Below are positions 18,800 through 32,214 of a stretch of DNA of 40,308 bases, one piece after another. A program made the translations under genes and the position numbers. The notes under the pieces were generated by a model. That model was not told the origin of the DNA. It made no database searches and worked only from the letters and a program-made list of their open reading frames with translations. The DNA is from Coriobacteriia bacterium (GTDB lineage: Bacteria > Actinomycetota > Coriobacteriia > Anaerosomatales > JAAXUF01), in assembly GCA_037140395.1 (NCBI GenBank), contig JBAXEO010000002.1:1-40308 (forward strand). The letters run 5' to 3'. Numbering within the stretch: position 1 is the stretch's first letter; each line of letters starts with the position of its first letter.

Positions 18800-19651
18800 G
18801 TGGGGGCTGTGAGCGACGATACGTCCGAGCCGGAGTTGGAGCCGAAGCTGGAGCCGGAGGCAGAGCCGGAACCGGATGTGGAGCTGACGCCGAAGCCGGA
18901 GTCGGAGCCGAAAGACCACGGCGCGGTGTACTCGGCTGCGAGGTTTGGGTGCGGTGGCATCCTGCTGGTCCTTATGGCTGCGGCAACGGGGATGGCGCTG
19001 GTGTCGGGCCTCGGGACGTGGGTCGCGCGGCACAAGGTCTCCACGGTGCCCAGCGTCACCGGGTTGCGTGTCCCCAGTGCGACCGCGCGCATTCTAGCTG
19101 CCGATCTGACCACGGCGCCCATGGGCGCGTTTGCGACGGCCGACTTCGAGCCCGACGTTGCCATGCGGCAAGATCCGCCTTCTGCTACTCATGTACCCCC
19201 TGGAACGCGCGTCGACCTGCTGGTCGCGGTTGCGCCGACGCCCACCGTTGTGCCTGACGTATCCATGGATACCGATGTTGCTGCGGCGAGCGTGCTCGAG
19301 TACGCGCTCCTGAGGCCCGTCGTGTACCAGCAGCTCAGCGACAGCGTTCCCTTTGGGCGGGTTGTCGCGCAGATGCCGCGGGCAGGGCAGCGCGCGACAA
19401 CCGGTCAGCAGGTTGCGCTGTTCGTGTCGATGGGCCGAGGGACGGGCGGTGCGGTGGTTCCCAGTGTGCTGGGCAAGTCATTGAGCGAGGCCGCGACCGA
19501 TGTCGCGAGCGTCTATCTCGTGGCGCTACTCTTTGATGCCGGTCCTGGCACGAGCCTGAGCGGCAAGGTGACCGACCAACTGCCGGCACCTGGCACGCGG
19601 GTACCAATCGGCTCAGGTGTGCCGCTCATCACTAGCAGCGTGGTGAACTAA
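18800..19651 (+). CDS. Membrane-anchored protein with three PASTA repeats only
   Basis: Acidic EP-repeat N-terminus (EPELEPKLEPEAEPEPDVELTPKPESEP), TM helix GGILLVLMAAATGMALVSGL, then three PASTA-like repeats (VPSVTGLRVPSA.., VVPDVSMDTDVAAA.., VVPSVLGKSLSEAA..). Start is GTG 18800, or possibly GTG 18809. Confidence 0.7.
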   Translation: MGAVSDDTSEPELEPKLEPEAEPEPDVELTPKPESEPKDHGAVYSAARFGCGGILLVLMAAATGMALVSGLGTWVARHKVSTVPSVTGLRVPSATARILAADLTTAPMGAFATADFEPDVAMRQDPPSATHVPPGTRVDLLVAVAPTPTVVPDVSMDTDVAAASVLEYALLRPVVYQQLSDSVPFGRVVAQMPRAGQRATTGQQVALFVSMGRGTGGAVVPSVLGKSLSEAATDVASVYLVALLFDAGPGTSLSGKVTDQLPAPGTRVPIGSGVPLITSSVVN

Positions 19652-22386
19652 CCAGTCACCTTCGCTTCCTGTGCCGACACGCGCGACCGGGCGATCATCT
19701 TGCCGATCTCCCACAACACAAAGAGAAGGATCGCCGGTGCCGTGGCGAGCGCCCACTGCGTCATCGACAAGTGCGTAGTGCCGAGCATCTTGCGGAGCAA
19801 TCCCGACTCGGTCACGAGAATCGCCAGTACGATCTCGGCAAGTACCGTCCAGTTCAGCGTGGAGTTGTCGAAGGTGGCGACCGTGAGGATCGACAGGTTC
19901 TGGCTCCGGCTTTCGTAGGAGCCGACCACTCGGAACATCGCGAACGCTGTCACTGCAAGCGTCGAGCCGATGGCCAGACTCCCCAAGGCTGCTTGACCGT
20001 AGACGATGAGGAGCAGGAACGACGCAGTCATGAGCACGCCGACAAGGCCGACGGTCAGTACGACCGAACCCGTGAGGATCTTCTCGTCTCGCGGACGTGG
20101 CTTGAGCAGCATGAGCCCCGGGGTCTCCTTGTCGAATCCAAGCGCCATGCCCAGCGGGGAGTCGATGAGGAAGTTCATCCACAGGATCTGCGTGGGGCTG
20201 AACGGCTGGCCTGCGGCGATGTTGAAGATCGTCGCGGCGAGAAACGTCAGAACAAAGGCGGCTAGCGTGATCAGGACGAATCGAATGTACTTGTCCAGGT
20301 TGTCGTAGAGCTTGCGGCCCTGCTCGATGGCGAAGACGATCGTGGCGAAGTTGTCGTCGGACAGGATCATGTTCCCGGCGTTCTTGGCGACCTCAGTGCC
20401 GGTTCCCATCGCGATGCCGATATCGGCGGCTTTGATCGCCGGAGCGTCGTTGACTCCGTCGCCAGTCATCGCGACGACCTCGCCCTTCTTCTTGAGCGTC
20501 GTGGCGATGAGCACCTTGTGCTCGGGCGCCACGCGTCCCACCACACCGATGTCGTCGATGCGCGCAAGCTGCTCGTCCTCGCTCAAGGCAGCGAAGTCGG
20601 CACCCAGGATCGCCTCGCCCGGGATGCCGAGCTGCTTGGCGATCGCCGCGCCCGTCACGACGTCGTCACCGGTGATCATGCGCACGCGGATGTGCGCCTT
20701 CTGGGCCTCAGCGACCGCGTCTTTGGACTCGAGGCGCGGCGGATCGACCATGCCAACGATGCTCGTGACCGAAAGCTCGCTCATGTAGCCGAGAAGGTCG
20801 CCATCAGCCTTGAACTCGGCTGGGGCGATGTCGCGAAACGCGGCGGCCATGATGCGCAAGCCTTCGCCACCCATGCGATCGATGTTGGTATTCACCCGCT
20901 TCTTGATGTCATCATCAAGAGGAATGCTCGTGCCTCCCGAGAGTGCGGAAGTGGAGCGCCCGAACACCGCGGGGGAGGCCCCCTTCACGTACGCACGGAC
21001 CACCTTCTTGCCGCTCTCATCGGTGACGTCGCAAAACGTCGCCATCAGCTTGTAGGTCGGATCGAACGGCAGCGTGGCCAGTCGCGGCGACTTCGCCTGC
21101 GAAGCCGCAACGTCGAGCCCCGCCTTGTGACCCAAGACGAGCAGCGCGCCTTCAGTCGGGTCACCCACGACTTTTCCGTCTTGCAGCTTGGCATCGCTGG
21201 CCATGAGGAACGGCAGAATCGCGTCGTCGATCGAGGCGGATGTCCCTGCCGTGTGCTGTATCTGACCCTCCAAGCTGTAGCCCGTGCCACTTACCGTGTA
21301 GCGATCCGTGGGGTCGAGCACCTCGACCACGGTCATCTGGTTCATGGTCAGCGTGCCGGTCTTGTCGGAGTTGATCGCCGAGGTCGAGCCGAGCGTCTCG
21401 ACGGATGAGAGCTCCTTGACAATCGCGTTCTTCTTGGCAAGGTCCATGGCGCCGTTGGACAGGATCACGTCGACGACGGTGGGAAGCGCTTCGGGGATCG
21501 CTGCGATCGCGAGGGCGACCGCGGTGATGAAGAGGGTCTGCCAGGCTTGGCCGCGCATCGCGCCGAGCGCGAACATCACGACCATCGTCAGACCGGCCAT
21601 CGCGCCGATCCAGAGCGTCATCTGGTTCAGCTGCTTGGTGAGCGGCGTGTCTTCGGCCTTGGTCGCCGCGAGCATCCCTGAGATCTTGCCGACTTGGGTG
21701 TCGGCCCCGACACCCGTCACGATGATGGTCCCGCTGCCGTGCGTCACCGGCGTGTTCATGAAGGCCATGTCGGTCTGGTCGCCCGGGTTGGTCGCATCAC
21801 CGGTCGGTGCCGACGAGCCCTTGGACGCCGGCACGCTCTCGCCGGTGAGCGCCGACTCGTCGATCTGGAGCGAGCTGGCCGCTACGATGCGGCCGTCTGC
21901 AGGCACCTGGTCGCCCGCCGCCAGGAGTACGACATCGCCGGTCACGAGCTGCTCGGCGGGTATCTTGGAGTCGGTTCCGTCTCTGAGCACGCGCGCCGAG
22001 GTCTTCATCATCGACTTGAGCGCGTTCATCGCGCTGTCGGCCTTGCCCTTCTGGCGCAGCCCGACGACCGCGTTGACCACTGTCAGCAGCAGCAGAACGA
22101 TGCCGGTGTTGTACTGCTTGATGACAATCGAGATCACTCCGGCGATGACCAAGATGATCTGCATGTAGCTCGAGTACTCGGCGAGAAACCGCATCCAGCC
22201 CGGCGTGGGCTTCTCGGCGGGAAGGGCGTTGGGGCCGTTCTTTGACAGCCGACTTGCCGCCTCTGTCGCGGAGAGACCGGTCGACTGATCGACGCCGAGT
22301 TTCTGCGCCACATCGTCGGCTGACATTGCATACCACTTGGCCGTATCCGTGCCCGTCACACTCGGCGCGTCTGCCTTCTTGCTCAA
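19648..22386 (-). CDS. Cation-transporting P-type ATPase (P2 type, Ca2+/Mg2+-like)
   Basis: N-terminal cation-ATPase domain, LTGESVP, IPEALPTVV (TM4), DKTGTLT, MITGDD, TGDGVNDAPAIKAADIGIAMG, ten TM helices. Ion specificity cannot be determined from sequence alone. Confidence 0.9.
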   Translation of the reverse strand: MSKKADAPSVTGTDTAKWYAMSADDVAQKLGVDQSTGLSATEAASRLSKNGPNALPAEKPTPGWMRFLAEYSSYMQIILVIAGVISIVIKQYNTGIVLLLLTVVNAVVGLRQKGKADSAMNALKSMMKTSARVLRDGTDSKIPAEQLVTGDVVLLAAGDQVPADGRIVAASSLQIDESALTGESVPASKGSSAPTGDATNPGDQTDMAFMNTPVTHGSGTIIVTGVGADTQVGKISGMLAATKAEDTPLTKQLNQMTLWIGAMAGLTMVVMFALGAMRGQAWQTLFITAVALAIAAIPEALPTVVDVILSNGAMDLAKKNAIVKELSSVETLGSTSAINSDKTGTLTMNQMTVVEVLDPTDRYTVSGTGYSLEGQIQHTAGTSASIDDAILPFLMASDAKLQDGKVVGDPTEGALLVLGHKAGLDVAASQAKSPRLATLPFDPTYKLMATFCDVTDESGKKVVRAYVKGASPAVFGRSTSALSGGTSIPLDDDIKKRVNTNIDRMGGEGLRIMAAAFRDIAPAEFKADGDLLGYMSELSVTSIVGMVDPPRLESKDAVAEAQKAHIRVRMITGDDVVTGAAIAKQLGIPGEAILGADFAALSEDEQLARIDDIGVVGRVAPEHKVLIATTLKKKGEVVAMTGDGVNDAPAIKAADIGIAMGTGTEVAKNAGNMILSDDNFATIVFAIEQGRKLYDNLDKYIRFVLITLAAFVLTFLAATIFNIAAGQPFSPTQILWMNFLIDSPLGMALGFDKETPGLMLLKPRPRDEKILTGSVVLTVGLVGVLMTASFLLLIVYGQAALGSLAIGSTLAVTAFAMFRVVGSYESRSQNLSILTVATFDNSTLNWTVLAEIVLAILVTESGLLRKMLGTTHLSMTQWALATAPAILLFVLWEIGKMIARSRVSAQEAKVTG

Positions 22387-22456
22387 GGTGGGCTCCGTTC
22401 TTGTAAGCGTCTGGGAATGGTATGCGCTGCCTGGCGCGGGGCTTTAGGGACGCGGT

Positions 22457-23539
22457 CTACTTTGACTTGTTCTTCTTTTTGGCCTTCTTCTTCGAGTCAC
22501 GTTTGGTGTTGTGATCCGGAGCTGCCGCAGCATCTGCGGGCGGGGCATCCGCGGGCCGAGCGTCTGCGGGTGCAGTCTTTTCGGCGGCTTTGCGAGCGGC
22601 CTTTGCCTCGAGCTCCGCTTCGACGGGATCGGGTGCAGCGCCGGCGGGCGCCTCGGCCTCGAGCACGGTCTTGGTTGCATCGAGTGCAGCGAGCTCTTCG
22701 GCACCGATGACCGGGTACTGAGGATTGATGGTGGCCAGTGTGTCGACCAGGACCGCAGCGGCGGCGATGCGCGCGAACCACTTGTGATCGGCCGGGATGA
22801 CGTACCAGGGCGCCCATTCGGTGCTGGTGTTGGAGAGCATCTCTGAGAACGCCTTTTGGTAGTCGTCCCAGAATTCGCGCTCCTTGGCATCGCCAGACGA
22901 GAACTTCCAGTTCTTCTCGGCGAGGTCGATGCGGGCGAGGAATCGTTTGCGCTGCTCCTCCTTGGAGAGGTTCAGGAAAATCTTCACTACCTTGTAGCCG
23001 TTGTCGGTGAGGTGCCGTTCCCACTCGTTGATCTCGCGGTATCGGCGCTTCCACACGTCTCGGCCCGACTTGGGTAGCCGCTGGTGCTCGAGCACTTCCG
23101 GATGCACTCGGACCACAAGCACTTCCTCGTAGTGGGAGCGGTTGAAGATGCCGATGTTGCCTCGAGCCGGCAGCTTCTGCTGGTAGCGCCAGAGGTAGTC
23201 GTGGGCGAGCTCATCGGCGGTAGGCACCTTGAAGCCGTGGACCTCGACGCCCTGCGGATTGACGCCACTCATGACGTGGCGGATGGTGCCGTCTTTGCCT
23301 GCGGCGTCGAGCGCCTGCAGACACATCAGTACGCCCACCGTGCCTTGCGCCGCCAGCCTGCTCTGGTAGTCGGCGAGTAGTTCGATCCCGCGCTGGAGGA
23401 GCTCTTCGCCGTCTTCCTTGGCGAGGAAGCCGGCCTTGTAGCCGGGATCGAAGTCTCGGGCCAGTCTGACCTGCCTACCAGGCTCTACTCGGAAGGGCTC
23501 GATAAGCTCCCTGACGCGCTTCATGTTTATTGCCGCCAT
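22457..23539 (-). CDS. ppk2: Polyphosphate kinase 2 family protein with Ala/Pro/Lys-rich C-terminal tail
   Basis: LQALDAAGKDGTIRHVMSGVNPQG, FNRSHYEEVLVVRVH, EREFWDDYQKAFSEML, APWYVIPADHKWFAR. These are the PPK2 core motifs. SD GAGGAGAG upstream of ATG 23539. Confidence 0.88.
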   Translation of the reverse strand: MAAINMKRVRELIEPFRVEPGRQVRLARDFDPGYKAGFLAKEDGEELLQRGIELLADYQSRLAAQGTVGVLMCLQALDAAGKDGTIRHVMSGVNPQGVEVHGFKVPTADELAHDYLWRYQQKLPARGNIGIFNRSHYEEVLVVRVHPEVLEHQRLPKSGRDVWKRRYREINEWERHLTDNGYKVVKIFLNLSKEEQRKRFLARIDLAEKNWKFSSGDAKEREFWDDYQKAFSEMLSNTSTEWAPWYVIPADHKWFARIAAAAVLVDTLATINPQYPVIGAEELAALDATKTVLEAEAPAGAAPDPVEAELEAKAARKAAEKTAPADARPADAPPADAAAAPDHNTKRDSKKKAKKKNKSK

Positions 23540-23568
23540 ATCCCACTCTCTCCTCTACGATCGATCGG

Positions 23569-25110
23569 TTACACGCCCATCTCGGCTTGAATGCGGCCGC
23601 TCTTGAATGCGGCCTGCATAGCCTCGAAGTCGCGCTCATTCTGGTCGGCATAGGCGACCGCGAAGTCAGCGATCGCGTTGTCGAAGACGTCGTTCGTTCC
23701 CAGGTAGGCGGCCAGCGCTATGCGGTCGCCGGTCCGTGCGTGCCCACGGGCGAGTGTCCAGCCGCACATGCCGGCGTAGGGGATGAAGGTCGGGGGAGGC
23801 ATTGTGCTCACGTCGATCGAGGCCTTGCCATCCCAGAGCTGCCGCACGTAGAAGTCGTGCACCTTGCCATCGAAGGCGTGCACCTTGTACCAGCCCAAGA
23901 GGCTGTCACTTGCGGCCTGCGTCAGCCGCTGGCCCTCGACGACACGGCGCCCATGGTTGCGGTAGCGGCTTCTGCCGACGAAGCGCTCCAGCACCGAAGC
24001 CTCGGCCTGCTTGAGCTGCAGGAAGAGAGGGTCGGTGTTGTCTCGGCCGGTGGCCAAGACAACCCACGAGCGCAGGCCGACGCTGCCTACGCCGACCACC
24101 TTTCGGGCGATCTCGCGGAACTCGTACTCCTCGAGAAGGTGCCGGCGGTCATCAGACAGGCTCATGGCGTAGTTGCGCAGGAACTCGTGGATGGTCTTGT
24201 TGAAGGTCTCGAGCGACTCGCCCGCGAGCAGCTCAGATGCAGGCTCGAGGAGCGGCGGCTGGCTTACGAACCGGGGCTCGCCATCAACCATGACCGTGAG
24301 CTTCGCGAGTGCCCGCAGGTTGTTCTTGGCCTCTGCCTTGGCGAACAGCTTGGCTGTCCGCTTCACGGTGCGCTTCTCGGCGTCTGACTTCAGGCGTTCC
24401 AGAATGATTCTCGTGTCCAGGCGCTCGTACCACACATCGAGGTTTCCGAGCGTTGCAAATTGGGTCATGCTCTCCCGGTACGCGCTTGCCACCGTGAGCA
24501 GGACATCACGCCGGTCCGCCGGCTCCATGCCCCGGTCTCTCATGGCGACCTCGAAGGACGCCGCCAGCCGTTTCACGTCCCACTCCCACGGACCGGGCAG
24601 CGTCTCGTCAAAGTCGTTCATGTCGAACACCTGGCCGCGCTCTGGAGACGAGTAGATGCCAAAGTTGACCAAGTGCGCGTCGCCGCACGCCTGCACACTG
24701 AGGCCGGTGCGCGGTGTCGTTGCGAGGTCGGAAGCCATGATGTAGGCACCGCCGCGGAAGAATGCGAATGGCGATGCCAGCATGCGCCCATACCGGATGG
24801 GGACGAGTTCCGGCCAGCGGGTCTTCGCCTGCTCTTCGAGGAGCGACACCGGGTCGGGTCGGTTGGGCCACGTCTCCCATTGAGCCTGGCATCGGCGCGG
24901 AGTCTCCTGTCGGCTCGCCTTACCGCGGCTGATACGTTCTTCAGGAGTGGCGTGCGGCAGCAGCGCCTCGTACTGGAGAGGCGGCGGAGCTTGGGGCGCC
25001 GGAGCCACGTTTGCCGCCCTGGCGCGCGGTGCTGGTTTCGCGGCTACCGCGGTTTTGGCCTCGGTCGTCTGAGTGGTGGGCTTCGCCGGGGGCTTTCTTG
25101 GCGTGGTCAT
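23569..25110 (-). CDS. DUF2252 domain-containing protein
   Basis: VPIRYGRMLASPFAFFRGGA, ACGDAHLVNFG, FDMNDFDET, WDVKRLAASF are typical DUF2252 blocks. Start moved from 25482 to ATG 25110 (MTTPRKPPAKP) behind GAGGAG. A 29-nt gap separates it from ppk2. Confidence 0.8.
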   Translation of the reverse strand: MTTPRKPPAKPTTQTTEAKTAVAAKPAPRARAANVAPAPQAPPPLQYEALLPHATPEERISRGKASRQETPRRCQAQWETWPNRPDPVSLLEEQAKTRWPELVPIRYGRMLASPFAFFRGGAYIMASDLATTPRTGLSVQACGDAHLVNFGIYSSPERGQVFDMNDFDETLPGPWEWDVKRLAASFEVAMRDRGMEPADRRDVLLTVASAYRESMTQFATLGNLDVWYERLDTRIILERLKSDAEKRTVKRTAKLFAKAEAKNNLRALAKLTVMVDGEPRFVSQPPLLEPASELLAGESLETFNKTIHEFLRNYAMSLSDDRRHLLEEYEFREIARKVVGVGSVGLRSWVVLATGRDNTDPLFLQLKQAEASVLERFVGRSRYRNHGRRVVEGQRLTQAASDSLLGWYKVHAFDGKVHDFYVRQLWDGKASIDVSTMPPPTFIPYAGMCGWTLARGHARTGDRIALAAYLGTNDVFDNAIADFAVAYADQNERDFEAMQAAFKSGRIQAEMGV

Positions 25111-25338
25111 GGAAGGACTCCTCTGCTGACTACCAGGACGGTCGCGGACCGAGACCATACTAGTCCTTGACTCTTTACTCCTTCCCAACAAGAGGTTTCT
25201 TGCATCAGCGATTCGGGCGGCACAGGGTTCCGTCGAACGGTAGGATGGGATGGGAACACTCCTCGTAGGACCCAATGCGCAGATGCCGGACGGTTGCCGG
25301 CCGTGGGCGCTGTGCTTGCGATATCGAAAGAGAGCCAC

Positions 25339-26061
25339 ATGGACCAGCGATTCGCCGTCGACGGGGTCGACGCGCATTCTCACCTGAGGCAGGCCGCTCC
25401 CGCCATTCTGCTTGCCAAGGCCGAGCCGCTCTTCGAGCTCGAGTCGGCGGCAAGCGGCGGCGCCGACATGGACGCCGTCCACGACATGCGCGTCGCATCG
25501 CGGCGGCTACGCGAATCGATGCGGCTTCTGGCGCCTCTCTACCCGCCCGCGGCCTTCGCGCAGTGGTACAAGCGCGTGCGTGGCGTGACTCGCGCGCTCG
25601 GACCCGTGCGCGACTCCGACGTCTTCATCGACGCGTTCTCCAAGCTCAACCGATCGCTTGACGCAGGCGGGCGTCACGCCGTCGCATTCCTGGTGGGCTA
25701 CCGGATGGGGCAGCGGGAGCGCCAGCTTGAGCTCTTGCAGCGTGCGCTCGGCAACCTCGACCTCGTCCAGAGCCGCCGGTCGTTCGCGCGGCTGGTCCGG
25801 GCCCCCAAGCGCGGGCCTGAGTCGCAGCGGCCCCTCTCGGCGTTTGCGCATGCGGCGGTCGCCGAGCGCATCTCGGCGGTGTACGGGCTGATGCCGGTCG
25901 CACTCGACGAGGCCGACATCGAGGCGCAACACGCGCTACGCATCACCTTCAAGCGGCTGCGCTATGCCGTCGAGGTGTTCGCGCCCTGCTATGGCGACGA
26001 CTTCGCTGCGCTCCACGAGACGCTGACCGCCTTTCAAGACGAGCTAGGCCGACCTGCATGA
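25339..26061 (+). CDS. CHAD domain-containing protein, 5' part (reading frame interrupted near 26048)
   Basis: HDMRVASRRLRESMRLL, LGPVRDSDV, HALRITFKRLRYAVEVF are CHAD helix motifs. ATG 25339 follows GAAAGAGAG. It ends ..LTAFQDELGRPA-stop in the middle of a conserved CHAD block. Confidence 0.8.
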   Translation: MDQRFAVDGVDAHSHLRQAAPAILLAKAEPLFELESAASGGADMDAVHDMRVASRRLRESMRLLAPLYPPAAFAQWYKRVRGVTRALGPVRDSDVFIDAFSKLNRSLDAGGRHAVAFLVGYRMGQRERQLELLQRALGNLDLVQSRRSFARLVRAPKRGPESQRPLSAFAHAAVAERISAVYGLMPVALDEADIEAQHALRITFKRLRYAVEVFAPCYGDDFAALHETLTAFQDELGRPA

Positions 26062-26575
26062 CCTGCACGTCTTCCTGGACATGGTGCGTGAGCCGGAGCG
26101 CCGTGCTGCGGCCCTGGCAGCCGGCGTGAGCGCCGAGGATCTCGTCGCCGTCGAGACGCTACTCGAAAAGAAGGCCCACCGCGAGTTCACGCAGTTCTCC
26201 AAGCTCGCACGGGAGCACCCCGCGGGCGAACTCCTCCCAGCGCTCCTGCTCCCGCTGTCGCGCGTGGCCGAGCCGCAGCCTGCAGCTTCACCGGCCGTCT
26301 TCGAGGGCCAGCCTCATGCCGCTGCAGAGGGCGACTCCGCTGCCGGCTCCGAGCCGCAGGCCCTCGTGGTGGCCGGCGAAATCGAGCCGCCGCCCTTGGA
26401 GATCCCCATTGCCGACTTTGGTGGCTTTGCCATCGAGCCGCCAATCGTTGTCGGCGCTGAGCCATGGGCGTTGCGACCGCGAGTAGAGCCATCGGAGCCC
26501 GTCGCCGAGCCCGAGCCCGAGCCCCCTGCCCTCGCACCGGTTACCTCCGGCCCTGCCGAGGAACCTGCCGGATGA
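26051..26575 (+). CDS. CHAD domain protein, 3' part in the +1 frame (continuation of the previous ORF), with Pro/Glu-rich tail
   Basis: Reading from 26051 gives DLHDLHVFLDMVREPERRAAAL.., which completes the expected CHAD block LQDxLGxxHDxxV. The track ORF begins at internal Met 26081. ATGA overlap with ppx at 26572-26575. Confidence 0.65.
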   Translation, partial: DLHDLHVFLDMVREPERRAAALAAGVSAEDLVAVETLLEKKAHREFTQFSKLAREHPAGELLPALLLPLSRVAEPQPAASPAVFEGQPHAAAEGDSAAGSEPQALVVAGEIEPPPLEIPIADFGGFAIEPPIVVGAEPWALRPRVEPSEPVAEPEPEPPALAPVTSGPAEEPAG

Positions 26576-28101
26576 GCCGACTGCAGGCCATCGACATCGG
26601 CACCAACTCCGTGCGCTCGATCATCGTCGAAGTGCCGGTGGGCGGTGCCCGCCACGTGATCGACGATGAGAAGGCGATGACGCGCCTGGGCCAGGGTCTC
26701 GACGCGACCGGCATGCTTGATCCCGAGGCGGTCGACCGCACCATCGAAGCGCTCACTGCGATGCGCGACATCGGCGTCAGTCTCGGCGTCTCGGAGGTGC
26801 GAGCCATCGCCACCGAGGCGGTTCGCCGCGCGAGCAACGGCGAGGAATTCGTCGCCCGCATGAGAGAAGAGGCGGGCATCGAGGTCGAGGTCATCTCGGC
26901 CGAGGAGGAAGGTCGCCTGGTGTGGCTCAGCGCCGCACTTCAGGTGGGTTATGCGCCCTTCTCGGCGGCGATTGACATCGGCGGTGGGTCGGTCGAGATC
27001 GTGCAGGCGATCGACGCAGATCCGGTTGAGATCGCGTCGCTTCGACTGGGCGCTCGGGTGTTGGCGGAACGCTTTGTCGCCGAAGATCCCATCTCGGAGG
27101 AGGCGTTCAAACTGCTCAAGCGCCACGTCCGGCTAGCCCTGCGTGATGGCGTGGAACTGCTGACACCCGGCGCAAGCCCGCTGGTCGGCTCCGGCGGCGC
27201 TGTCACGACGACGGCCGCGGTTGTTGCTGGCATGCGCGGCCGACGGTACGAATCGCTACACGGGCTGGAGATCGAGCGCGCCGAGGTCATGCAGCTGCTC
27301 GATATCCTGAGCCACAGCACAGCCGCCGAGCGGCTCAAGCTTCCAGGCATGCCACCCGAGCGCATCGACGTGGCGCTTCCCGGTACCCTGGTACTGGCCG
27401 AGATCATGAAGCTCTTTGGCGCGTCGCGCGTGCTGGTCAACGCGCGTGGAATCCGCGAGGGCATCATCATCGATACGCTGTCAAGCGAGGGTGCCATAGC
27501 GAGTAAGGTCGATCACCTGCAGGCGGTCCGCGAACTTGGCGCACGTCACCACTACGACCGCAAGCATGCCGAGCAGGTCACGTGGCTCGCGCTTTCGCTC
27601 TTTGACGAGCTCGCAGATCTTCTCGGCATCGATCCTGATGGGCGTCCGCTGCTTCAGACTGCCGCGATGCTGCACGACGTAGGCGACTCCGTTGCCTACG
27701 ATGGGCACCACAAGCACAGCTACACGCTGATTGTTCACGCGAGCCTGCCGGTGTTTACTCGGCGTGAGATGGCGATGACCGCTTCGATCGCCCGCTACCA
27801 CACCAAGTCGCAACCCAAAGCCGGTCACGAGTCGTGGTCGTCGCTCGACCCTCCGGATCGGCTCAAGGTGCGCGAACTCGCAGCGCTCCTGAGAATCGCC
27901 GACGCTCTCGACCGTAGCCGGGGGGCCCGCATCCAACGTATCGAGGTTGCCGACGATGGCGCCGTCACGCGGCTCACCGTGTTCAGCGCTCATGACCTGC
28001 ACGCCGAACTGTACGGAGTGGAAACGAAGAAGGACCTGTACGAAGAAACTTTCGGTCGAACGCTGGTCGTCGAGACCGAGTATTCCGAGGAGACAAGATG
28101 A
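26572..28101 (+). CDS. ppx: Exopolyphosphatase (Ppx/GppA family) with C-terminal HD domain
   Basis: MSRLQAIDIGTNSVRSIIVEV, EVEVISAEEEGRLVW, IDIGGGSVEI, then the HD region HAEQVTWLALSLFDEL..AAMLHDVGDSVAYDGHHKHSY. Start moved to ATG 26572. Confidence 0.9.
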   Translation: MSRLQAIDIGTNSVRSIIVEVPVGGARHVIDDEKAMTRLGQGLDATGMLDPEAVDRTIEALTAMRDIGVSLGVSEVRAIATEAVRRASNGEEFVARMREEAGIEVEVISAEEEGRLVWLSAALQVGYAPFSAAIDIGGGSVEIVQAIDADPVEIASLRLGARVLAERFVAEDPISEEAFKLLKRHVRLALRDGVELLTPGASPLVGSGGAVTTTAAVVAGMRGRRYESLHGLEIERAEVMQLLDILSHSTAAERLKLPGMPPERIDVALPGTLVLAEIMKLFGASRVLVNARGIREGIIIDTLSSEGAIASKVDHLQAVRELGARHHYDRKHAEQVTWLALSLFDELADLLGIDPDGRPLLQTAAMLHDVGDSVAYDGHHKHSYTLIVHASLPVFTRREMAMTASIARYHTKSQPKAGHESWSSLDPPDRLKVRELAALLRIADALDRSRGARIQRIEVADDGAVTRLTVFSAHDLHAELYGVETKKDLYEETFGRTLVVETEYSEETR

Positions 28102-28187
28102 GTTGGTGGCCCTTCGGCGGGCGTAAAGCCATGCCAGTTCCCGCATCGATTTCGGCAGAAGTGCCAACGCCCGTCAAGGAGGTCGTC

Positions 28188-30368
28188 ATGAGTGAACCCA
28201 TCGGCGAAGCAGTCCTCGAGCCGGAGCCGGCAGCTGCCGCCCCGCCAGTGGCCGACCTCGCTTCATCGACGCTCTATCTCAACCGCGAATTGAGCATGCT
28301 CTCCTTTCAGGAGCGCGTGCTTGAGGAGGCCGAGGACCTCGATAACCCGCTGCTCGAGCGGGTCAAGTTCCTCTCCATCTTCAGTTCCAACCTCGCCGAG
28401 TTCTACATGGTGCGCATCGCAGGTCTCAAGCAGCAGGTCCAGGCGGGAGTGCGCGACCTCTCGGCCGACGGGCTGACACCGGCCGAGCAGCTCGCGATCG
28501 TCAGAGAGTCCGCCCGAGGGCTGATCGTGCGCGGGCGTGGGTTGTATCCGCGTCTGAGGGACGAGCTCGCGGGTAACGGAATCTACGTGCTGGGCTACGG
28601 TGAGCTCGACGAGCATCAGCGCGAGGACGCCGACCGCTATTTCAATGACGTTGTCTATCCCGTTCTCACCCCGCTCGCTTTTGACCCGGCACGTCCGTTC
28701 CCACACATCTCCAATCTGAGCCTGAACCTCGCGGTGCTCATCCGCACGTCAGACGGCGAGGAGCGCTTCGCTCGCGTCAAGATGCCCCGCGCACTGCCCA
28801 GGCTGGTGCCGATCTGCTCCGCCGCAGGCGCAGGCCCATCGTGTGACATGAAGGGCGCCGACAAGCGCGGTCGCTCCTACCACTTCGTGTGGCTTGAGCA
28901 GCTCGTCACCGCGCACCTGGGCATGATCTTCCCGGGAATGGAAGTGGTCGAGGCGCACCCCTTCCGTGTTACGCGCGACGCCGACATCGCCATCCAGGAG
29001 CTCGAGGCCGAAGACCTCCTCGAGACGATCGAGGAAGGTGTCCGCCGTCGGCGCTTTGGCTCGGTGGTTCGGGTCACCGTCACACCGTCGTTGCCCGACT
29101 TCGTCCGAGACACGCTGGCCGAGAACCTCAAGCTCGACCCCGAGGACCTGGTCATCGTCGAGCCGCCCATCGGCGCGAGCAACCTCATGGAGCTCTACAA
29201 GATCGATCGTCCCGACCTCAAGGACCCCTCGTTTCGGCCCGCGCAGCTCCCCGGCTACAACGACGCCGAGCACTTCGACCTGTTCGCCGCGATTCGCGAA
29301 CACGACCTCCTGCTACACCGCCCCTTCGATTCCTTTGAGCCGTTCGTCAAGCTGCTCCAGCAGGCCGCCGAGGACCCCGACGTGCTCGCCATCAAGATGA
29401 CGCTGTACCGGGTCGGCCGTGACTCCCCGGTGGTCGAGGCACTCCTCGACGCCGCCGAGAACGGCAAGGAGGTCGCGGCACTCGTCGAGCTCAAGGCCCG
29501 TTTCGACGAGGAGAGCAACATCGGCTGGGCGCGCAAGTTGGAGCAAGCAGGCGTGCACGTGGTCTACGGGGTGCTCGGCCTCAAGACGCACAGCAAAGTC
29601 GCGCTCATCGTTCGCAAAGAGGGCGATCGCGTCCGCCGTTACTTGCATCTGGGCACCGGCAACTACAACGTCGCTACCGCGCTGCAGTACACCGACCTCG
29701 ACCTGCTCATCACCGACGAGACCATGGGCGAAGACGCAAGCGAACTATTCAACTTCCTCACCGGCTATGCGGAGCAAGAGTCCTACGAGAGCTTCCTGGT
29801 CGCCCCGGTGACTATCCGCCAGGGGCTGGAAGAGCTGGTCCGACGCGAAATCGCCCATGCGCGCGCGGGCAGGCCCGCGAGGATGATCCTAAAGATGAAC
29901 TCGCTGGTGGACAGGGCAATCGTGCGCCTGCTCTACGAGGCATCGCAGGCCGGGGTGCAGATCGATCTGATCGTGCGGGGCATGTGCATCCTGCGTCCCG
30001 GCGTGCCGGGCATCAGTGACACCATCTCGGTCACGAGCATTGTTGGGCGGTTTCTGGAGCACACTCGCATCTACTACTTCGAGAACGACGGCGAGCCGAC
30101 GGTGCTCATCGGCAGCGCCGATCTTATGCGGCGCAACCTCGACCGCCGCGTCGAAGTGCTGGCACCAGTCAACGACCCCGCGCTGATTGCTCGGCTGCGA
30201 GGGGAGATCTTGCAGACCTACCTCGACGACAACGTCAAGGCGCGAGTGATGCGCTCGGATGGCTCGTACGTGCGCGTGCATCCCGAGGAAGGCGAGGAGC
30301 GCGTCGATTCCCAGCGCGTCCTCATGGAGGCGTCGGCGAAGAGGTCTGGGCACGAGCCTGATCGATGA
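28188..30368 (+). CDS. ppk: Polyphosphate kinase 1
   Basis: LYLNRELSMLSFQERVLEEA, FLSIFSSNLAEFYMVR, phospho-His region GLKTHSKVALIVR, two PLD-like C-terminal domains. ATG 28188 lies 5 nt after AAGGAGG. The alternative ATG 28098 overlaps the ppx stop (ATGA). Confidence 0.9.
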   Translation: MSEPIGEAVLEPEPAAAAPPVADLASSTLYLNRELSMLSFQERVLEEAEDLDNPLLERVKFLSIFSSNLAEFYMVRIAGLKQQVQAGVRDLSADGLTPAEQLAIVRESARGLIVRGRGLYPRLRDELAGNGIYVLGYGELDEHQREDADRYFNDVVYPVLTPLAFDPARPFPHISNLSLNLAVLIRTSDGEERFARVKMPRALPRLVPICSAAGAGPSCDMKGADKRGRSYHFVWLEQLVTAHLGMIFPGMEVVEAHPFRVTRDADIAIQELEAEDLLETIEEGVRRRRFGSVVRVTVTPSLPDFVRDTLAENLKLDPEDLVIVEPPIGASNLMELYKIDRPDLKDPSFRPAQLPGYNDAEHFDLFAAIREHDLLLHRPFDSFEPFVKLLQQAAEDPDVLAIKMTLYRVGRDSPVVEALLDAAENGKEVAALVELKARFDEESNIGWARKLEQAGVHVVYGVLGLKTHSKVALIVRKEGDRVRRYLHLGTGNYNVATALQYTDLDLLITDETMGEDASELFNFLTGYAEQESYESFLVAPVTIRQGLEELVRREIAHARAGRPARMILKMNSLVDRAIVRLLYEASQAGVQIDLIVRGMCILRPGVPGISDTISVTSIVGRFLEHTRIYYFENDGEPTVLIGSADLMRRNLDRRVEVLAPVNDPALIARLRGEILQTYLDDNVKARVMRSDGSYVRVHPEEGEERVDSQRVLMEASAKRSGHEPDR

Positions 30369-30429
30369 GCCTGGGATTCGTGCGACAGGCATAGGGACCC
30401 GACGGTAGTTGAAAGGGGGGCGAGGACCG

Positions 30430-32214
30430 GTGAAAGCGCTGCTGCGATGGACGCCGGGCCTGCGCTCGCTTTCCGCATACCAGCGAAAGTGGTTGCCCGC
30501 CGACCTCATCGCGGGCCTGGTGCTCGCCGCGGCGCTCGTGCCCGTGGGCATGGCGTATGCCGAGCTCGCCGGGTTGCCGCCCGTGTACGGCCTCTACGCG
30601 AGCCTCGTCCCGCTGCTGTTGTACGCCGTGTTCGGGCCGTCACCGGTGCTGGTGATGGGGCCGGACTCGGCCACCGCCTCGCTCGTGGCGGCCGCGATCG
30701 TCCCGCTCGCGCTTGCGGGCTCGCCGGAGCGCATCGCGCTCGCGGGCATGCTGGCGCTGCTTGTCGGAGCGATGACGCTGGTGGTGGGGATCGCTCGGCT
30801 GGGATTCGTGGCGGCGCTGCTCTCCAAGCCGGTGCGCCTTGGCTACATGAACGGCATCGCGGTAGTTGTGGTAGTCAGCCAACTCCCTAAGATGTTCGGT
30901 TTCAAAGCACCTGCCGAGGGCGTCGTCTTGCAGGTCTTCGAGTTCTCCAAGCGCGTCGGCGCTGTCAACCCGGTGGCAGCAGCGCTCGGGGTGGGATCAC
31001 TCGTCGTGATTCTGGGGCTGCGCGCTTGGATGCCTAAGATCCCCGGGCCGCTCGTCGTCGTCTTCGTGGGCGCGGTTGCAACGGCGCTCTTCCAGCTGCA
31101 GCAGTTCGGCATCGCGACGGTCGGCGTGCTGCCGCAGGGGCTTCCATGGCCGAGCTGGCCTGCGGTGGGAATCCCGCAGACGCTGACGCTTGTCGCGGCC
31201 GCCTTTGGAATCGCCGTCATTTCGCTGACCGACACTAGCGTGCTGTCGCAGTCGTTCGCTGGCCGCTTTGGCTACGAAGTGGACGCCGACGAGGAGTTCA
31301 TCGCGCTTGGCGTGGCCAACATCGCCGCGGGGCTCTTCCAAGGCTTCCCGGTGAGCGGTAGCCAGACTCGCACCGCCATCAACCAGGCTGCCGGTGCCAA
31401 GACACCGCTGTCGGGAATAGTGGCAGCGATCGTCCTCGGCTCCATGCTGGTTGCGACGCCGTGGCTGCTCAAGACCCTGCCGATCCCGGTGCTGGCCGCC
31501 GTGGTTGTCTCGGCGGGATTCGAGCTCGCCGATGTGCGTGGCACCGCCCGGCTTTGGGTGATTCGGCGTACCGAGTTTGCGCTGTCGGTGGCGAGCTTCG
31601 TGGGCGTGATTGCACTCGGCGTGCTGCCGGGTGTCTTCGTCGCGGTGGCGCTTTCGATGCTGAACTTCATCCGCCGCCAGTGGTGGCCGCACGACGCGGT
31701 GCTCGGGCGCGTCCCGGGCGTCAAGGGCTACCACGACATCAGCGAGTTCCCTGAAGCCGAACAGGTGCCGGGGCTGCTGCTCTTCCGCTTCGACGCGCCG
31801 CTCTTCTTTGCCAACGCGGGCATCTTCCGCCACCGCGTGCTGGACCGTATCAAGACGGCCCGAGTGCCCGTGCGCCGTTTCGTTCTGTGCGCCGAGCCCA
31901 TCATCGACGTCGACACCACGGCCGCCGATGTTCTGAGCGAGCTTGTCGGCGAACTACAGTCGCGAAATATCGTGTTTGCGCTTGCCGAGATAAAGCATCC
32001 CGTCCGCGAACACATCGCGCGCTACGGCCTCATCGATCTCATCGGCGCCGACAACATCTTCCCCACGATCGGCAGCGCCGTGCATGAGTACGTGCACGCG
32101 ACTGGTGTGGATTGGGTGGACTGGCAGGACGCCGATGAGCCGGACGCTGCTGTACCGCCTCGGGCGATCGACGACGAGTCCCCGGACGAGAGCGACGAGC
32201 CTTCAAGGAGCTGA
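30430..32214 (+). CDS. SulP family inorganic anion transporter with C-terminal STAS domain
   Basis: LPADLIAGLVLAAALVPVGMAYAELAGLPPVYGLYASLVPLLLYAVFGPS, and the STAS region LLLFRFDAPLFFANAGIFR..VLCAEPIIDVDTTAADVL. GTG 30430 follows GAAAGGGGGGCGAGGA. The track uses TTG 30409. Confidence 0.88.
   Translation: MKALLRWTPGLRSLSAYQRKWLPADLIAGLVLAAALVPVGMAYAELAGLPPVYGLYASLVPLLLYAVFGPSPVLVMGPDSATASLVAAAIVPLALAGSPERIALAGMLALLVGAMTLVVGIARLGFVAALLSKPVRLGYMNGIAVVVVVSQLPKMFGFKAPAEGVVLQVFEFSKRVGAVNPVAAALGVGSLVVILGLRAWMPKIPGPLVVVFVGAVATALFQLQQFGIATVGVLPQGLPWPSWPAVGIPQTLTLVAAAFGIAVISLTDTSVLSQSFAGRFGYEVDADEEFIALGVANIAAGLFQGFPVSGSQTRTAINQAAGAKTPLSGIVAAIVLGSMLVATPWLLKTLPIPVLAAVVVSAGFELADVRGTARLWVIRRTEFALSVASFVGVIALGVLPGVFVAVALSMLNFIRRQWWPHDAVLGRVPGVKGYHDISEFPEAEQVPGLLLFRFDAPLFFANAGIFRHRVLDRIKTARVPVRRFVLCAEPIIDVDTTAADVLSELVGELQSRNIVFALAEIKHPVREHIARYGLIDLIGADNIFPTIGSAVHEYVHATGVDWVDWQDADEPDAAVPPRAIDDESPDESDEPSRS

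What the first reader, a model, noticed from the sequence alone, without database searches (positions are those of the whole stretch)
23569..25110. DUF2252 protein co-transcribed with ppk2 carries protein-kinase-like catalytic motifs
The DUF2252 ORF stops 29 nt before the ppk2 start codon. Within it I see ACGDAHLVNFG (GDAHLVN at 24664-24684), which resembles the (H)xDxxxxN catalytic loop of APH/choline-kinase/protein-kinase-like enzymes. About 14-17 residues later comes VFDMNDFDE, resembling the metal-binding DFG/IDxx Asp strand at the usual spacing. I also recall, unverified, that this DUF is grouped with the kinase-like superfamily. Its position at the head of a ppk2 operon, divergent from CHAD-ppx-ppk1, suggests an uncharacterised phosphotransferase linked to polyphosphate or nucleotide-phosphate metabolism.
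Basis: partly seen in the sequence, partly recalled or inferred. Interest (0 to 1): 0.65.

Follow-up and report, generated by a model that had tools for sequence, protein, structure and literature searches.

The report
Permuted kinase-like DUF2252 beside polyphosphate genes
This gene encodes an ordinary member of the widespread, uncharacterised DUF2252 family, which the literature already classes as a kinase-like fold with its two lobes in swapped order; its position in front of a polyphosphate kinase gene comes from a recent insertion in this one genome and is not a conserved partnership.

Summary
A 513-aa DUF2252 gene lies on the minus strand at 23569-25110 and stops 29 nt before ppk2. It is divergent from CHAD-ppx-ppk1-sulP. 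GDAHLVN and VFDMNDFDE sit at the stated coordinates.

The catalytic-type residues are 92-100% conserved in 60 representatives that share 38-54% identity. A glycine-rich loop and a Lys-bearing strand lie about 200 residues after the catalytic loop, so the kinase lobes are in permuted order. A confident AlphaFold model (pLDDT 91) matches APH-type small-molecule kinases only weakly. Both halves hit the same kinase, NahK, in swapped order. The kinase-likeness and the lobe swap are already published (Pfam PKinase clan; PMC9758233), and this scan has noted the same motifs on other DNA.

The polyphosphate link is weak. Five relatives in three genera keep CHAD-ppx-ppk1 opposite DUF2252 but have no ppk2. 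Here a 3.9-kb ppk2 plus P-type ATPase cassette was inserted exactly downstream. Elsewhere PPK2 is directly adjacent in 1 of 59 phylum genomes, within 10 kb in 4 of 80 loci, and within 10 kb of none of 14 copies in a second phylum. Genome-level co-presence is strong (56/60 versus 35/141) but confounded.

Verdict: a typical member of a known family, substrate unknown, interest low to moderate.

The parts
23569..25110 (-). DUF2252 (PF10009) gene, 513 aa; predicted circularly permuted protein-kinase-like enzyme
   Evidence: Pfam E=3.9e-137. AlphaFold model pLDDT 91, pTM 0.89. Orthologues at 70-82% identity in five relatives.
24961..25110 (-). N-terminal ~50 aa disordered, basic Pro/Ala/Lys-rich tail (MTTPRKPPAKP...)
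   Evidence: pLDDT <50 for residues 1-40. The tail has net charge +4. Similar Lys-rich leaders occur in many homologues: 69 of 261 have tails of 40 aa or more, and 40 of those 69 carry net charge of +3 or more.
24664..24684 (-). Catalytic-loop-type motif GDAHLVN (D144, H146, N149)
   Evidence: Coordinates verified. G143 and N149 are invariant; D144 and H146 are kept in 59/60. The motif lies between strands 138-141 and 150-154 of the model.
24604..24630 (-). VFDMNDFDE: candidate metal-binding Asp (D163) at the end of a strand, followed by an acidic cluster D166, D168, E169
   Evidence: D163 56/60, D166 57/60, D168 59/60, E169 58/60. The strand spans 160-164. D163 lies 14 residues after N149.
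24076..24093 (-). Glycine-rich loop GVGSVG (aa 340-345) in a beta-hairpin
   Evidence: G340 60/60; G342 and G345 58/60. The loop lies between strands 330-337 and 348-354, which is a kinase-type hairpin and not a Rossmann beta-alpha unit.
24001..24021 (-). LQLKQAE: strand carrying Lys367 (codon 24010-24012), the candidate ATP-phosphate-binding lysine
   Evidence: K367 55/60. It sits in strand 361-369, which is followed by helix 386-397 and strands 406-411 and 417-424, the order of a kinase N-lobe.
23540..23568 (-). 29-nt spacer with a GGAGAG ribosome-binding site between the DUF2252 stop and the ppk2 start
   Evidence: Sequence read. No terminator-like site on this strand.
22457..23539 (-). ppk2 (PPK2_rel_1 subfamily, single-domain) with a Lys-rich C-terminal tail
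   Evidence: Pfam PPK2 E=5e-67. TIGR03709 scores 365.7 bits against a cutoff of 247. The tail ends ...KRDSKKKAKKKNKSK.
19648..22386 (-). P2-type (Ca2+-ATPase-like) cation pump, second gene of the inserted cassette
   Evidence: Pfam E1-E2_ATPase and Cation_ATPase N and C domains. Closest NCBIfam models are the PMR1/SERCA-type Ca-ATPases, below their equivalog cutoffs.
19637..23566 (.). ~3.9-kb insertion (ppk2 + ATPase) between the DUF2252 stop and the convergent PASTA-gene stop
   Evidence: In relative G003 (L107) the homology to DUF2252 and to the PASTA gene is 38 nt apart; here the gap is 3931 nt. The cassette is absent from five relatives. The same cassette (PPK2 65%, ATPase 67% identity) occurs in a Solirubrobacterales MAG (L054).
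25111..25293 (.). Divergent intergenic region between DUF2252 and the CHAD operon
   Evidence: A block GTGTTCCCATCCCATCCTACCGTTCG is conserved within the genus only. No sigma-70 consensus match.
25294..32214 (+). CHAD, acidic ORF 26081-26575, ppx, ppk1 and sulP: co-directional genes, probable operon
   Evidence: Pfam and NCBIfam hits. The order is conserved in G001, G002, G003 and G010, partly in G008, and without DUF2252 in G004.

Best explanation
The gene encodes a typical DUF2252 protein, a cytoplasmic enzyme with a circularly permuted protein-kinase-like fold. The chain begins inside the helical C-lobe and runs through the catalytic loop (D144-x4-N149) and the metal-binding strand (D163). 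It only then forms the ATP-clamping N-lobe: Gly-rich hairpin 340-345, Lys367 strand, helix, two strands. It ends in C-lobe helices.

Because every residue class needed for phosphotransfer is conserved, the protein is most likely an active nucleotide-dependent phosphotransferase. The inferred roles are Lys367 and the Gly loop holding the triphosphate, N149 and D163 holding Mg2+, and D144 acting as base. Its nearest structural analogues are APH/choline-kinase-type small-molecule kinases, so a small-molecule substrate is the best guess. The substrate is unknown.

The apparent DUF2252-ppk2 operon is a by-product of a recent insertion of a ppk2 plus Ca-ATPase-like cassette into the 38-nt gap downstream of DUF2252 in this genome. 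ppk2 and the pump are now probably read through from the DUF2252 promoter.

Shown: family membership, motif conservation, secondary-structure order, the insertion, and the rarity of the adjacency. Inferred: catalytic competence, residue roles, read-through transcription and substrate class.
For: Family membership: Pfam PF10009 at E=3.9e-137. About 14,000 50%-identity clusters match the protein at E<=1e-3.

Motif conservation in 60 representatives: G143 and N149 60/60; D144 and H146 59/60; D163 56/60; G340 60/60; G342 and G345 58/60; K367 55/60.

Structure: the model has pLDDT 91. Its element order is catalytic strands 138-174, then helices, then hairpin 330-354, strand 361-369, helix 386-397 and strands 406-424. 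An exhaustive structural search aligned residues 302-511 to NahK 4ocj_A residues 3-325 (Z 5.5), and about 19 of the top 50 hits were APH, choline-kinase or protein kinases. The separately folded fragment aa 50-300 (pLDDT 89.8) aligned full-length residues 124-219 to the catalytic core of the same chain, 4ocj_A 187-284 (Z 5.2). Maltokinase, glucosamine kinase, APH, MTR kinase and Bud32 were also among its top 50.

Literature and cross-hits: PMC9758233 and bioRxiv 10.64898/2026.09.18.752743 state PKinase-clan membership and the lobe permutation. In some ESM Atlas DUF2252 clusters, 11-13% of members also hit Pfam APH.

Insertion; both junctions are confirmed in independent runs.

Rarity of the adjacency.
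Against: No individual structural match is significant: Z is at most 5.5, where the tool's own noise level is 7-8, and Foldseek E exceeds 0.5. My profile-profile comparison with a 19-sequence APH profile was not significant (probability below 1%), although its best path did place QxCGDAHLxNF on vHGDyrLdN. I could not inspect model coordinates, so I have not shown that Lys367, the Gly loop and D144/N149/D163 face one pocket. The usual helix-C Glu partner of the lysine is not obviously conserved. No biochemical data exist for any family member. The alternative assignment of the metal-binding Asp to the invariant D178 cannot be excluded.
Confidence: 0.75

Rival explanations
1. DUF2252 is a phosphotransferase that works in polyphosphate or nucleotide-phosphate metabolism. 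It might phosphorylate or regulate PPK, PPX or CHAD proteins, act on a polyP-derived substrate, or dock on the granule through its basic tail. Its placement among ppk2, CHAD, ppx and ppk1 would then reflect function.
For: The DUF2252 <-> CHAD-ppx-ppk1-sulP arrangement is kept in five relatives of three genera. Within the family, 6 genomes have both the gene and the polyP operon and 7 have neither. A ppk2 cassette landed exactly downstream. PPK2 lies within 10 kb in 4 of 80 actinobacterial loci, against a rough chance expectation of about 1%. PPK2 is also adjacent or near in G054, G024 and G002. Genome-level co-presence: 56 of 60 DUF2252-positive genomes have PPK2 versus 35 of 141 negative ones; for CHAD the figures are 44 of 60 versus 36 of 141. 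In a second phylum, 6 of 6 DUF2252-positive genomes have PPK2. DUF2252 carries a basic Lys-rich N-terminal tail and PPK2 a Lys-rich C-terminal tail. A DUF2252 protein is depleted under phosphate limitation in Burkholderia (PMC13700237). Unverified notes of this scan report DUF2252 fused or coupled to PPK3-like and PpgK-like genes in other phyla.
Against: More than 90% of the DUF2252 loci examined have no polyP gene within 10 kb. No CHAD is adjacent in any of 59 phylum genomes, and no CHAD, PPX or PPK1 was detected near the 80 loci; that second test used tblastn, which is insensitive for CHAD. Neither PPK2 nor CHAD lies within 10 kb of any of 14 copies in a second phylum. The conserved synteny covers the whole block, including an unrelated PASTA gene, so it carries no specific weight. 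G004 keeps the polyP operon without DUF2252, and same-class families have DUF2252 but no CHAD at all. Neighbours elsewhere are heterogeneous: LuxR/MalT-type regulators, MFS, SulP, CLC, aquaporin, sulfatase, DAGK-like and B12-binding methyltransferase genes.
Confidence: 0.13
2. The fold is kinase-like and catalytically active, but the chemistry is not simple ATP-dependent phosphorylation. It could be AMPylation or another nucleotidyl or group transfer, as in atypical kinase-fold enzymes such as SelO.
For: The lobe permutation and the unusual acidic cluster D163-x2-D166-x-D168-E169, together with many invariant Arg and His residues (R181, R389, R423, H457), depart from canonical kinase sites. 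The helix-C Glu is not evidently conserved.
Against: The D-x4-N loop, Gly-rich hairpin and strand Lys have the canonical arrangement for gamma-phosphate transfer. Nothing in the data points specifically to another chemistry.
Confidence: 0.08
3. It is a pseudokinase or scaffold, or a HipA-like protein-kinase toxin, and not a metabolic enzyme.
For: The D-x-H-x2-N spacing resembles what I recall of the HipA catalytic loop; this is from memory and untested. Several bacterial kinase-like DUFs have turned out to be pseudokinases (bioRxiv 10.64898/2026.09.18.752743).
Against: All catalytic-type residues are 92-100% conserved, which argues against a pseudokinase. Pfam gives no HipA_C hit at E<=0.01. 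No small HTH antitoxin gene is adjacent. The gene is single-copy and vertically inherited with its neighbours.
Confidence: 0.04

Closest known systems
Pfam PF10009 (DUF2252), member of the Pfam PKinase clan
   Same: [quoted passage not shown]
   Different: Nothing essential differs. It carries a ~50-aa basic Pro/Ala/Lys N-terminal tail, which only about a quarter of homologues have at that length. It sits upstream of an inserted ppk2-ATPase cassette.
APH / choline-kinase-type small-molecule kinases: NahK (PDB 4ocj), maltokinase (5jy7), glucosamine kinase (6hwj), APH(3'), MTR kinase
   Same: A D-x4-N catalytic loop followed about 14 residues later by a strand-end Asp. An N-lobe made of a Gly-rich hairpin, a Lys strand, a helix and two strands. 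These are the best structural matches to both halves of the model.
   Different: The order of the lobes along the chain is swapped. The first residue of the Brenner motif is Cys-Gly in place of His-x. The helical parts differ. Z-scores reach only about 5, and no sequence-profile significance was obtained. It is not a member of PF01636.
Polyphosphate loci (ppk1-ppx-CHAD; PPK2; PPK3 operon of PMC12995831)
   Same: The gene lies physically inside such a locus in this genome and in its family relatives.
   Different: DUF2252 is not among the gene families that the PPK3 paper names as typical PPK neighbours. The adjacency is not conserved outside this family.
MalT-activated large genomic region (MRLGR) of Micromonosporaceae (PMC7567727)
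   Same: Its supplementary gene table lists a DUF2252 gene (AMIS_RS08950) among the Actinoplanes missouriensis genes, and the paper reports ppk2 copies in the corresponding regions of the compared strains. LuxR/MalT-type regulators are the commonest neighbour of DUF2252 in my 80 loci, at 13 of 80.
   Different: No MalT-type regulator gene and no TCATCC-N5-GGATGA site near the gene in this window.

Membership tests
Pfam PF10009 DUF2252 | Full-length profile match above the gathering score | tested here: met
   457.9 bits against a cutoff of 22.3, profile positions 1-389 of 392.
Pfam PF10009 DUF2252 | Family-conserved motifs QxCGDAHxxNFG, FDxNDFDET, GxGSVG and LQxK | tested here: met
   All are present in the window protein and 92-100% conserved in 60 representatives.
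Protein-kinase-like superfamily (Pfam PKinase clan) | Catalytic loop Asp-x4-Asn | tested here: met
   D144 59/60 and N149 60/60, in a loop between two strands.
Protein-kinase-like superfamily (Pfam PKinase clan) | Metal-binding Asp at the end of the second strand after the catalytic loop (DFG / IDxE position) | tested here: inconclusive
   D163 (56/60) ends strand 160-164, 14 residues after N149. The invariant D178 is an alternative suggested by a non-significant hhalign path. No coordinates were available to decide.
Protein-kinase-like superfamily (Pfam PKinase clan) | N-lobe with a Gly-rich hairpin and a strand lysine | tested here: met
   G340-x-G342-x-x-G345 lies between strands 330-337 and 348-354. 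K367 (55/60) lies in strand 361-369, followed by a helix and two strands. Residues 300-430 align to the N-lobes of NahK, homoserine kinase II, FN3K, APHs and choline kinases.
Protein-kinase-like superfamily (Pfam PKinase clan) | Significant overall fold or profile similarity to solved kinases | tested here: inconclusive
   VIA Z 5.5 and 5.2, below the tool's noise level. Foldseek E above 0.5. hhalign probability below 1%. Kinases are strongly enriched among the top hits, and both halves hit 4ocj_A in swapped order. Published clan assignment: PMC9758233.
Protein-kinase-like superfamily (Pfam PKinase clan) | Demonstrated nucleotide binding or phosphotransfer | not testable with these tools
   No biochemical data were found in the literature.
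Polyphosphate-metabolism operon member | Adjacency to ppk2 conserved across genomes | tested here: not met
   Absent in five orthologous loci. Adjacent in 1 of 59 phylum genomes. Within 10 kb in 4 of 80 loci and never co-directional with a short gap. Within 10 kb of none of 14 copies in a second phylum.
Polyphosphate-metabolism operon member | Adjacency to CHAD/ppx/ppk1 conserved beyond close relatives | tested here: not met
   Seen in 5 of 5 orthologous loci, but only inside this family, where the whole block is collinear. Not seen in 0 of 59 phylum genomes or near 0 of 14 second-phylum copies. G004 has the operon without DUF2252.
Polyphosphate-metabolism operon member | Co-transcription with ppk2 | not testable with these tools
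   The 29-nt gap, ribosome-binding site and lack of a terminator are compatible with it. No RNA run holds the locus.
HipA-like toxin kinases | HipA_C profile match and an adjacent HTH antitoxin gene | tested here: not met
   No HipA_C hit at E<=0.01. The neighbours are ppk2 and CHAD.

The most novel reading that the evidence does not exclude
DUF2252 enzymes are a missing, loosely linked component of bacterial polyphosphate biology. In this reading they are permuted kinases that act on, or are tethered through their Lys-rich tails to, polyP granules. The near-universal co-presence with PPK2, the repeated independent juxtapositions with PPK2 and polyP genes in different lineages, and the landing of a ppk2 cassette directly behind the gene would then reflect real functional coupling.
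Probability: 0.12. Interest if true: 0.7.

Novelty: new member of a known kind. Interest (0 to 1): 0.3.

Why it matters
DUF2252 is a very large family. About 14,000 50%-identity clusters match this protein, and the family is present in roughly 30% of the sampled genomes of this phylum. Its members look like intact enzymes, yet none has a known substrate, so any solid functional lead would annotate tens of thousands of genes. This locus does not supply such a lead. The ppk2 link that made the finding attractive is a one-genome insertion, and the kinase-likeness is already recorded. What remains useful is a clear residue map for mutagenesis (D144, N149, D163, K367, Gly loop), a confident model showing the permuted lobe order, and a quantified but confounded co-presence with PPK2 that a proper phylogenetic test could confirm or dismiss.

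Tried and rejected
- **PDB sequence searches.** The single protein and the 60-sequence profile found no relatives. The only hits (E about 0.1) were lactate dehydrogenases aligned on VVGVGSVG. I rejected them because the model places this loop in a beta-hairpin and not in a Rossmann beta-alpha unit.
- **Foldseek.** Searches against PDB, Swiss-Prot AFDB and AFDB clusters gave no significant non-DUF2252 match.
- **Profile-profile comparison.** DUF2252 against one APH protein of this genome, and against my own 19-sequence APH profile, was not significant.
- **Sources for the APH profile.** A search for APH genes in relatives at too strict a threshold returned only 3 loci. Eight of the 27 ORFs I picked automatically from the phylum-level APH loci lacked the Brenner motif, probably wrong-strand ORFs in high-GC DNA, and I discarded them.
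- **MalT operator.** TCATCC-N5-GGATGA has no match in the window better than chance.
- **Insertion scars.** I looked for flanking direct or inverted repeats that would mark the mechanism of the ppk2-ATPase insertion. None lies at the junctions, and the cassette shows no compositional anomaly.
- **Domain fusions.** Ten longer homologues carry only DUF2252 plus low-complexity tails.
- **Metagenome context look-ups.** Three divergent representatives showed unrelated neighbours or contigs too short to use.
- **Literature search for PF10009.** It returned only Plasmodium gene identifiers.
- **RNA evidence for co-transcription.** No RNA run holds the locus.
- **Model coordinates.** They are not available in the script box, so I could not measure active-site distances.
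Full report
**What is there.** The finding's coordinates describe a minus-strand ORF, 23569-25110, of 513 aa. Its ATG at 25110 is preceded by GGAG. The protein matches Pfam PF10009 (DUF2252) end to end at E=3.9e-137. NCBIfam has no model for it.

The stop codon is followed by 29 nt containing GGAGAG, then the ATG of a single-domain PPK2 gene at 22457-23539. That PPK2 belongs to subfamily TIGR03709. Next comes a P2-type, Ca-ATPase-like pump at 19648-22386. No terminator-like site lies on this strand between DUF2252 and ppk2.

Across a 183-bp gap on the other strand lie CHAD, a small acidic ORF, PPX, PPK1 and a SulP permease. VFDMNDFDE is aa 161-169.

Contigs from several lake-water DNA runs cross both ends of the ppk2-ATPase segment without mismatch, so the arrangement is not an assembly artefact. 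The genome is a 2.37-Mb, 94%-complete MAG. A source names a 69%-identical homologue (P0020) as coming from a Coriobacteriia MAG.

**Are the motifs meaningful?** The family is very large: 13,979 clusters at 50% identity match with E<=1e-3. I aligned 60 full-length representatives that share only 38-54% identity with the query. Conservation was as follows:

| Residue(s) | Kept in |
|---|---|
| G143, N149, G340 | 60/60 |
| D144, H146, D168 | 59/60 |
| E169, G342, G345 | 58/60 |
| D166 | 57/60 |
| D163 | 56/60 |
| K367 | 55/60 |

The second half is a glycine-rich loop, G340-V-G342-S-V-G345, and a lysine in the strand LQxK367. It lies about 200 residues after the catalytic loop.

**Fold.** AlphaFold2 run on this alignment gives a confident model (pLDDT 91, pTM 0.89). 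Only residues 1-40 are disordered. The order of elements along the chain is:
- helices 56-129;
- strands 138-141, 150-154, 160-164 and 171-174, which carry the D-x4-N loop and D163;
- a long helical stretch;
- a beta-hairpin 330-337/348-354 with the Gly-rich loop at its tip;
- strand 361-369 with K367;
- helix 386-397;
- strands 406-411 and 417-424;
- final helices 439-504.

The last five items before the final helices form the canonical topology of a protein-kinase N-lobe, but placed after the catalytic core. This is a circular permutation.

Order-dependent structure searches behave accordingly. Foldseek finds nothing significant in PDB or Swiss-Prot; its weak hits are kinase N-lobes (PKA, Pan3, titin kinase) over residues about 280-425. 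The exhaustive VIA search ranks N-acetylhexosamine 1-kinase (NahK, 4ocj_A) first, aligning model residues 302-511 to chain residues 3-325 at Z 5.5. About 19 of its top 50 entries are APH, choline-kinase, FN3K, YihE or protein kinases.

I then folded aa 50-300 alone (pLDDT 89.8) and searched again. The same chain 4ocj_A came first, now matching full-length residues 124-219 to its catalytic core 187-284 at Z 5.2. Maltokinase, glucosamine kinase, APH(3'), MTR kinase, Rv3168 and Bud32 were also in the top 50.

Each Z is below the tool's stated noise level, so no single match proves anything. The case rests on three things together: the same kinase hit by both halves in swapped order, the strong enrichment of one superfamily among the hits, and the motif conservation.

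My own profile-profile test against a 19-sequence APH profile was not significant (probability below 1%). Its best path did lay QxCGDAHLxNF on vHGDyrLdN. In two ESM Atlas DUF2252 clusters, 11-13% of members also hit Pfam APH.

[quoted passage not shown] A 2026 preprint (10.64898/2026.09.18.752743) explains its isolation in structural networks by that same N- and C-lobe permutation. I found no paper with biochemical or genetic data on any member.

This scan has also noted the same motifs in DUF2252 genes on other DNA (e1-4752440, e1-5315682). Those notes are unchecked and I do not count them as evidence.

**The ppk2 link.** I compared the locus with relatives:
- Five genomes of the same family (three of the same genus, two of other genera) carry the orthologue at 70-82% identity. 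Their order is SulP<PPK1<PPX<acidic ORF<CHAD <-> DUF2252> <PASTA gene, then a further shared gene.
- None has ppk2 or the ATPase between DUF2252 and the PASTA gene.
- None has an orthologue of this ppk2 anywhere. Their best match is 36% identical and corresponds to the other PPK2 of this genome. Three of the five are only 73-83% complete; the other two are 97-99% complete.
- In G003 the DNA homology to DUF2252 and to the PASTA gene is 38 nt apart. In the window it is 3931 nt apart.

So a two-gene ppk2-ATPase cassette was inserted precisely into the convergent intergenic gap. I found no flanking repeats and no compositional anomaly. A cassette with 65% and 67% identical proteins occurs in a Solirubrobacterales MAG (L054), which points to horizontal acquisition. 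The 'operon head' position of DUF2252 is thus recent and specific to this genome.

**How general is any polyP association?** I made four tests.
1. **80 further actinobacterial DUF2252 loci with 10-kb flanks (50-59% identity).** PPK2 lies within 10 kb in 4 and is never co-directionally adjacent. No CHAD, PPX or PPK1 was detected; tblastn is insensitive for CHAD. SulP lies nearby in 10, and a P-type ATPase in 6, four of them 64-67% identical to the window's pump. De novo clustering of neighbours gave a heterogeneous set: LuxR/MalT-type ATPase regulators (13 loci), MFS, SHOCT proteins, sulfatase, CLC channel, phosphodiesterase, DAGK-like kinase, aquaporin and K+ channel.
2. **201 near-complete genomes of the phylum.** DUF2252 occurs in 60, PPK2 in 91 and CHAD in 80. 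Comparing coordinates, PPK2 is adjacent to DUF2252 in one genome other than this one (G054, convergent, about 0.8 kb), plus one marginal gene fragment. CHAD is adjacent in none. Twenty-one weak PPK2 matches were not listed, so the PPK2 count is a lower bound. These tallies include the unpublished genomes G160 and G128, one genome each; removing them changes nothing.
3. **A second phylum, centred on a Ktedonobacterales genome.** Full-length DUF2252 occurs in 6 of 151 genomes. All six have PPK2, but none of the 14 copies lies within 10 kb of PPK2, or of CHAD in the five of those genomes searched for CHAD. The closest PPK2 is 23 kb away.
4. **The window's own family.** Six genomes have both DUF2252 and the polyP operon, seven have neither, and G004 has CHAD-x-ppx-ppk1 without DUF2252.

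The conserved divergent arrangement is part of a block that is collinear on both sides, including the unrelated PASTA gene. It therefore says little about function.

Some signal remains in favour of a link. Genome-level co-presence is strong: 56 of 60 DUF2252-positive genomes have PPK2 against 35 of 141 negative ones, and 44 of 60 have CHAD against 36 of 141. Proximity to PPK2 runs at about 5%, against a rough 1% chance estimate of my own. I also found scattered independent juxtapositions in G024, G002 and G054. One proteome study reports a DUF2252 protein depleted under phosphate limitation (PMC13700237). The supplementary gene table of the MRLGR paper lists a DUF2252 gene (AMIS_RS08950) among the Actinoplanes missouriensis genes, and the paper reports ppk2 copies in the corresponding regions of the compared strains (PMC7567727). 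The MalT operator of that system is not present here.

**Mechanism proposed.** The most likely mechanism is nucleotide-dependent phosphotransfer in a kinase-type cleft formed between the late N-lobe and the early catalytic core. The roles I assign to individual residues are inferred by analogy with solved kinases and are not shown here. The invariant basic residues R181, R389, R423 and H457, with several near-invariant arginines in helices 98-120, would suit an anionic or phosphorylated substrate. The substrate class is unknown. The structural neighbours are mostly sugar and other small-molecule kinases.

My rough odds are: small-molecule kinase about 50%; polyP-linked role about 13%; other chemistry on the same fold about 8%; protein kinase, toxin or pseudokinase about 4%; the rest undetermined.

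**Verdict.** The gene is an ordinary member of a known, uncharacterised, kinase-like family. The feature that raised interest, co-transcription with ppk2, is a local accident of insertion. Interest is low to moderate.

Noticed in passing
window 25294-26575 (+); L109 8296-9579 (-); L107 8228-9525 (-): The CHAD ORF (25294-26061) and the following acidic Pro/Glu-rich ORF (26081-26575) are one 427-aa ORF in relative G010. They are split into two ORFs here and in same-genus G003. The Pfam CHAD match here stops at profile position 216 of 228. This is either a genus-wide frameshift or split, or a real two-gene arrangement. It was also flagged by scan note e1-4766987.
   Followed up: partly
window 19637-23566: The ppk2 plus Ca-ATPase-like P-type pump travel as a two-gene cassette. 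The same pair (65% and 67% identity) occurs in a Solirubrobacterales MAG (L054). Pumps 64% identical lie near DUF2252 in L030, L046 and L063. A polyP kinase paired with a divalent-cation pump may be a module of its own.
   Followed up: partly
window 22457-22520 (-) and 24961-25110 (-): PPK2 ends in a Lys-rich tail (...KRDSKKKAKKKNKSK), and DUF2252 begins with a basic Pro/Ala/Lys tail. Among 261 DUF2252 homologues, 69 have N-terminal tails of 40 aa or more, and 40 of those 69 are net positive, often starting MAGKNKKKS... Such tails could bind polyanions. This is untested.
   Followed up: partly
window 25225-25262: An intergenic block GTGTTCCCATCCCATCCTACCGTTCG (given here in the orientation of the minus-strand DUF2252 gene) between DUF2252 and CHAD is conserved in the four genomes of the genus but not in the two other genera. 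It could be a shared promoter or operator element.
   Followed up: no
loci L026-L105 (neighbours of DUF2252): Large LuxR/MalT-type ATPase regulators (AAA_16 + GerE) are the commonest neighbour of actinobacterial DUF2252 genes, at 13 of 80 loci. Ion channels and transporters (MFS, SulP, CLC, MIP, K+ channel, P-type ATPase) recur alongside them. This is reminiscent of the MalT-activated island of PMC7567727.
   Followed up: partly
G000 contig C4 6839-7444 (locus L118 679-2388): The genome's only clear APH-family gene encodes a 569-aa protein (as the ORF is drawn from its first start codon) with a ~300-aa N-terminal extension of unknown nature ahead of an HNDCTPWN...FDWED kinase core.
   Followed up: no
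window 18800-19651 (+): A stand-alone PASTA-repeat protein without a kinase domain lies convergent to the inserted ATPase; their stop codons overlap at 19648-19651. It is conserved at this position in all five relatives.
   Followed up: no
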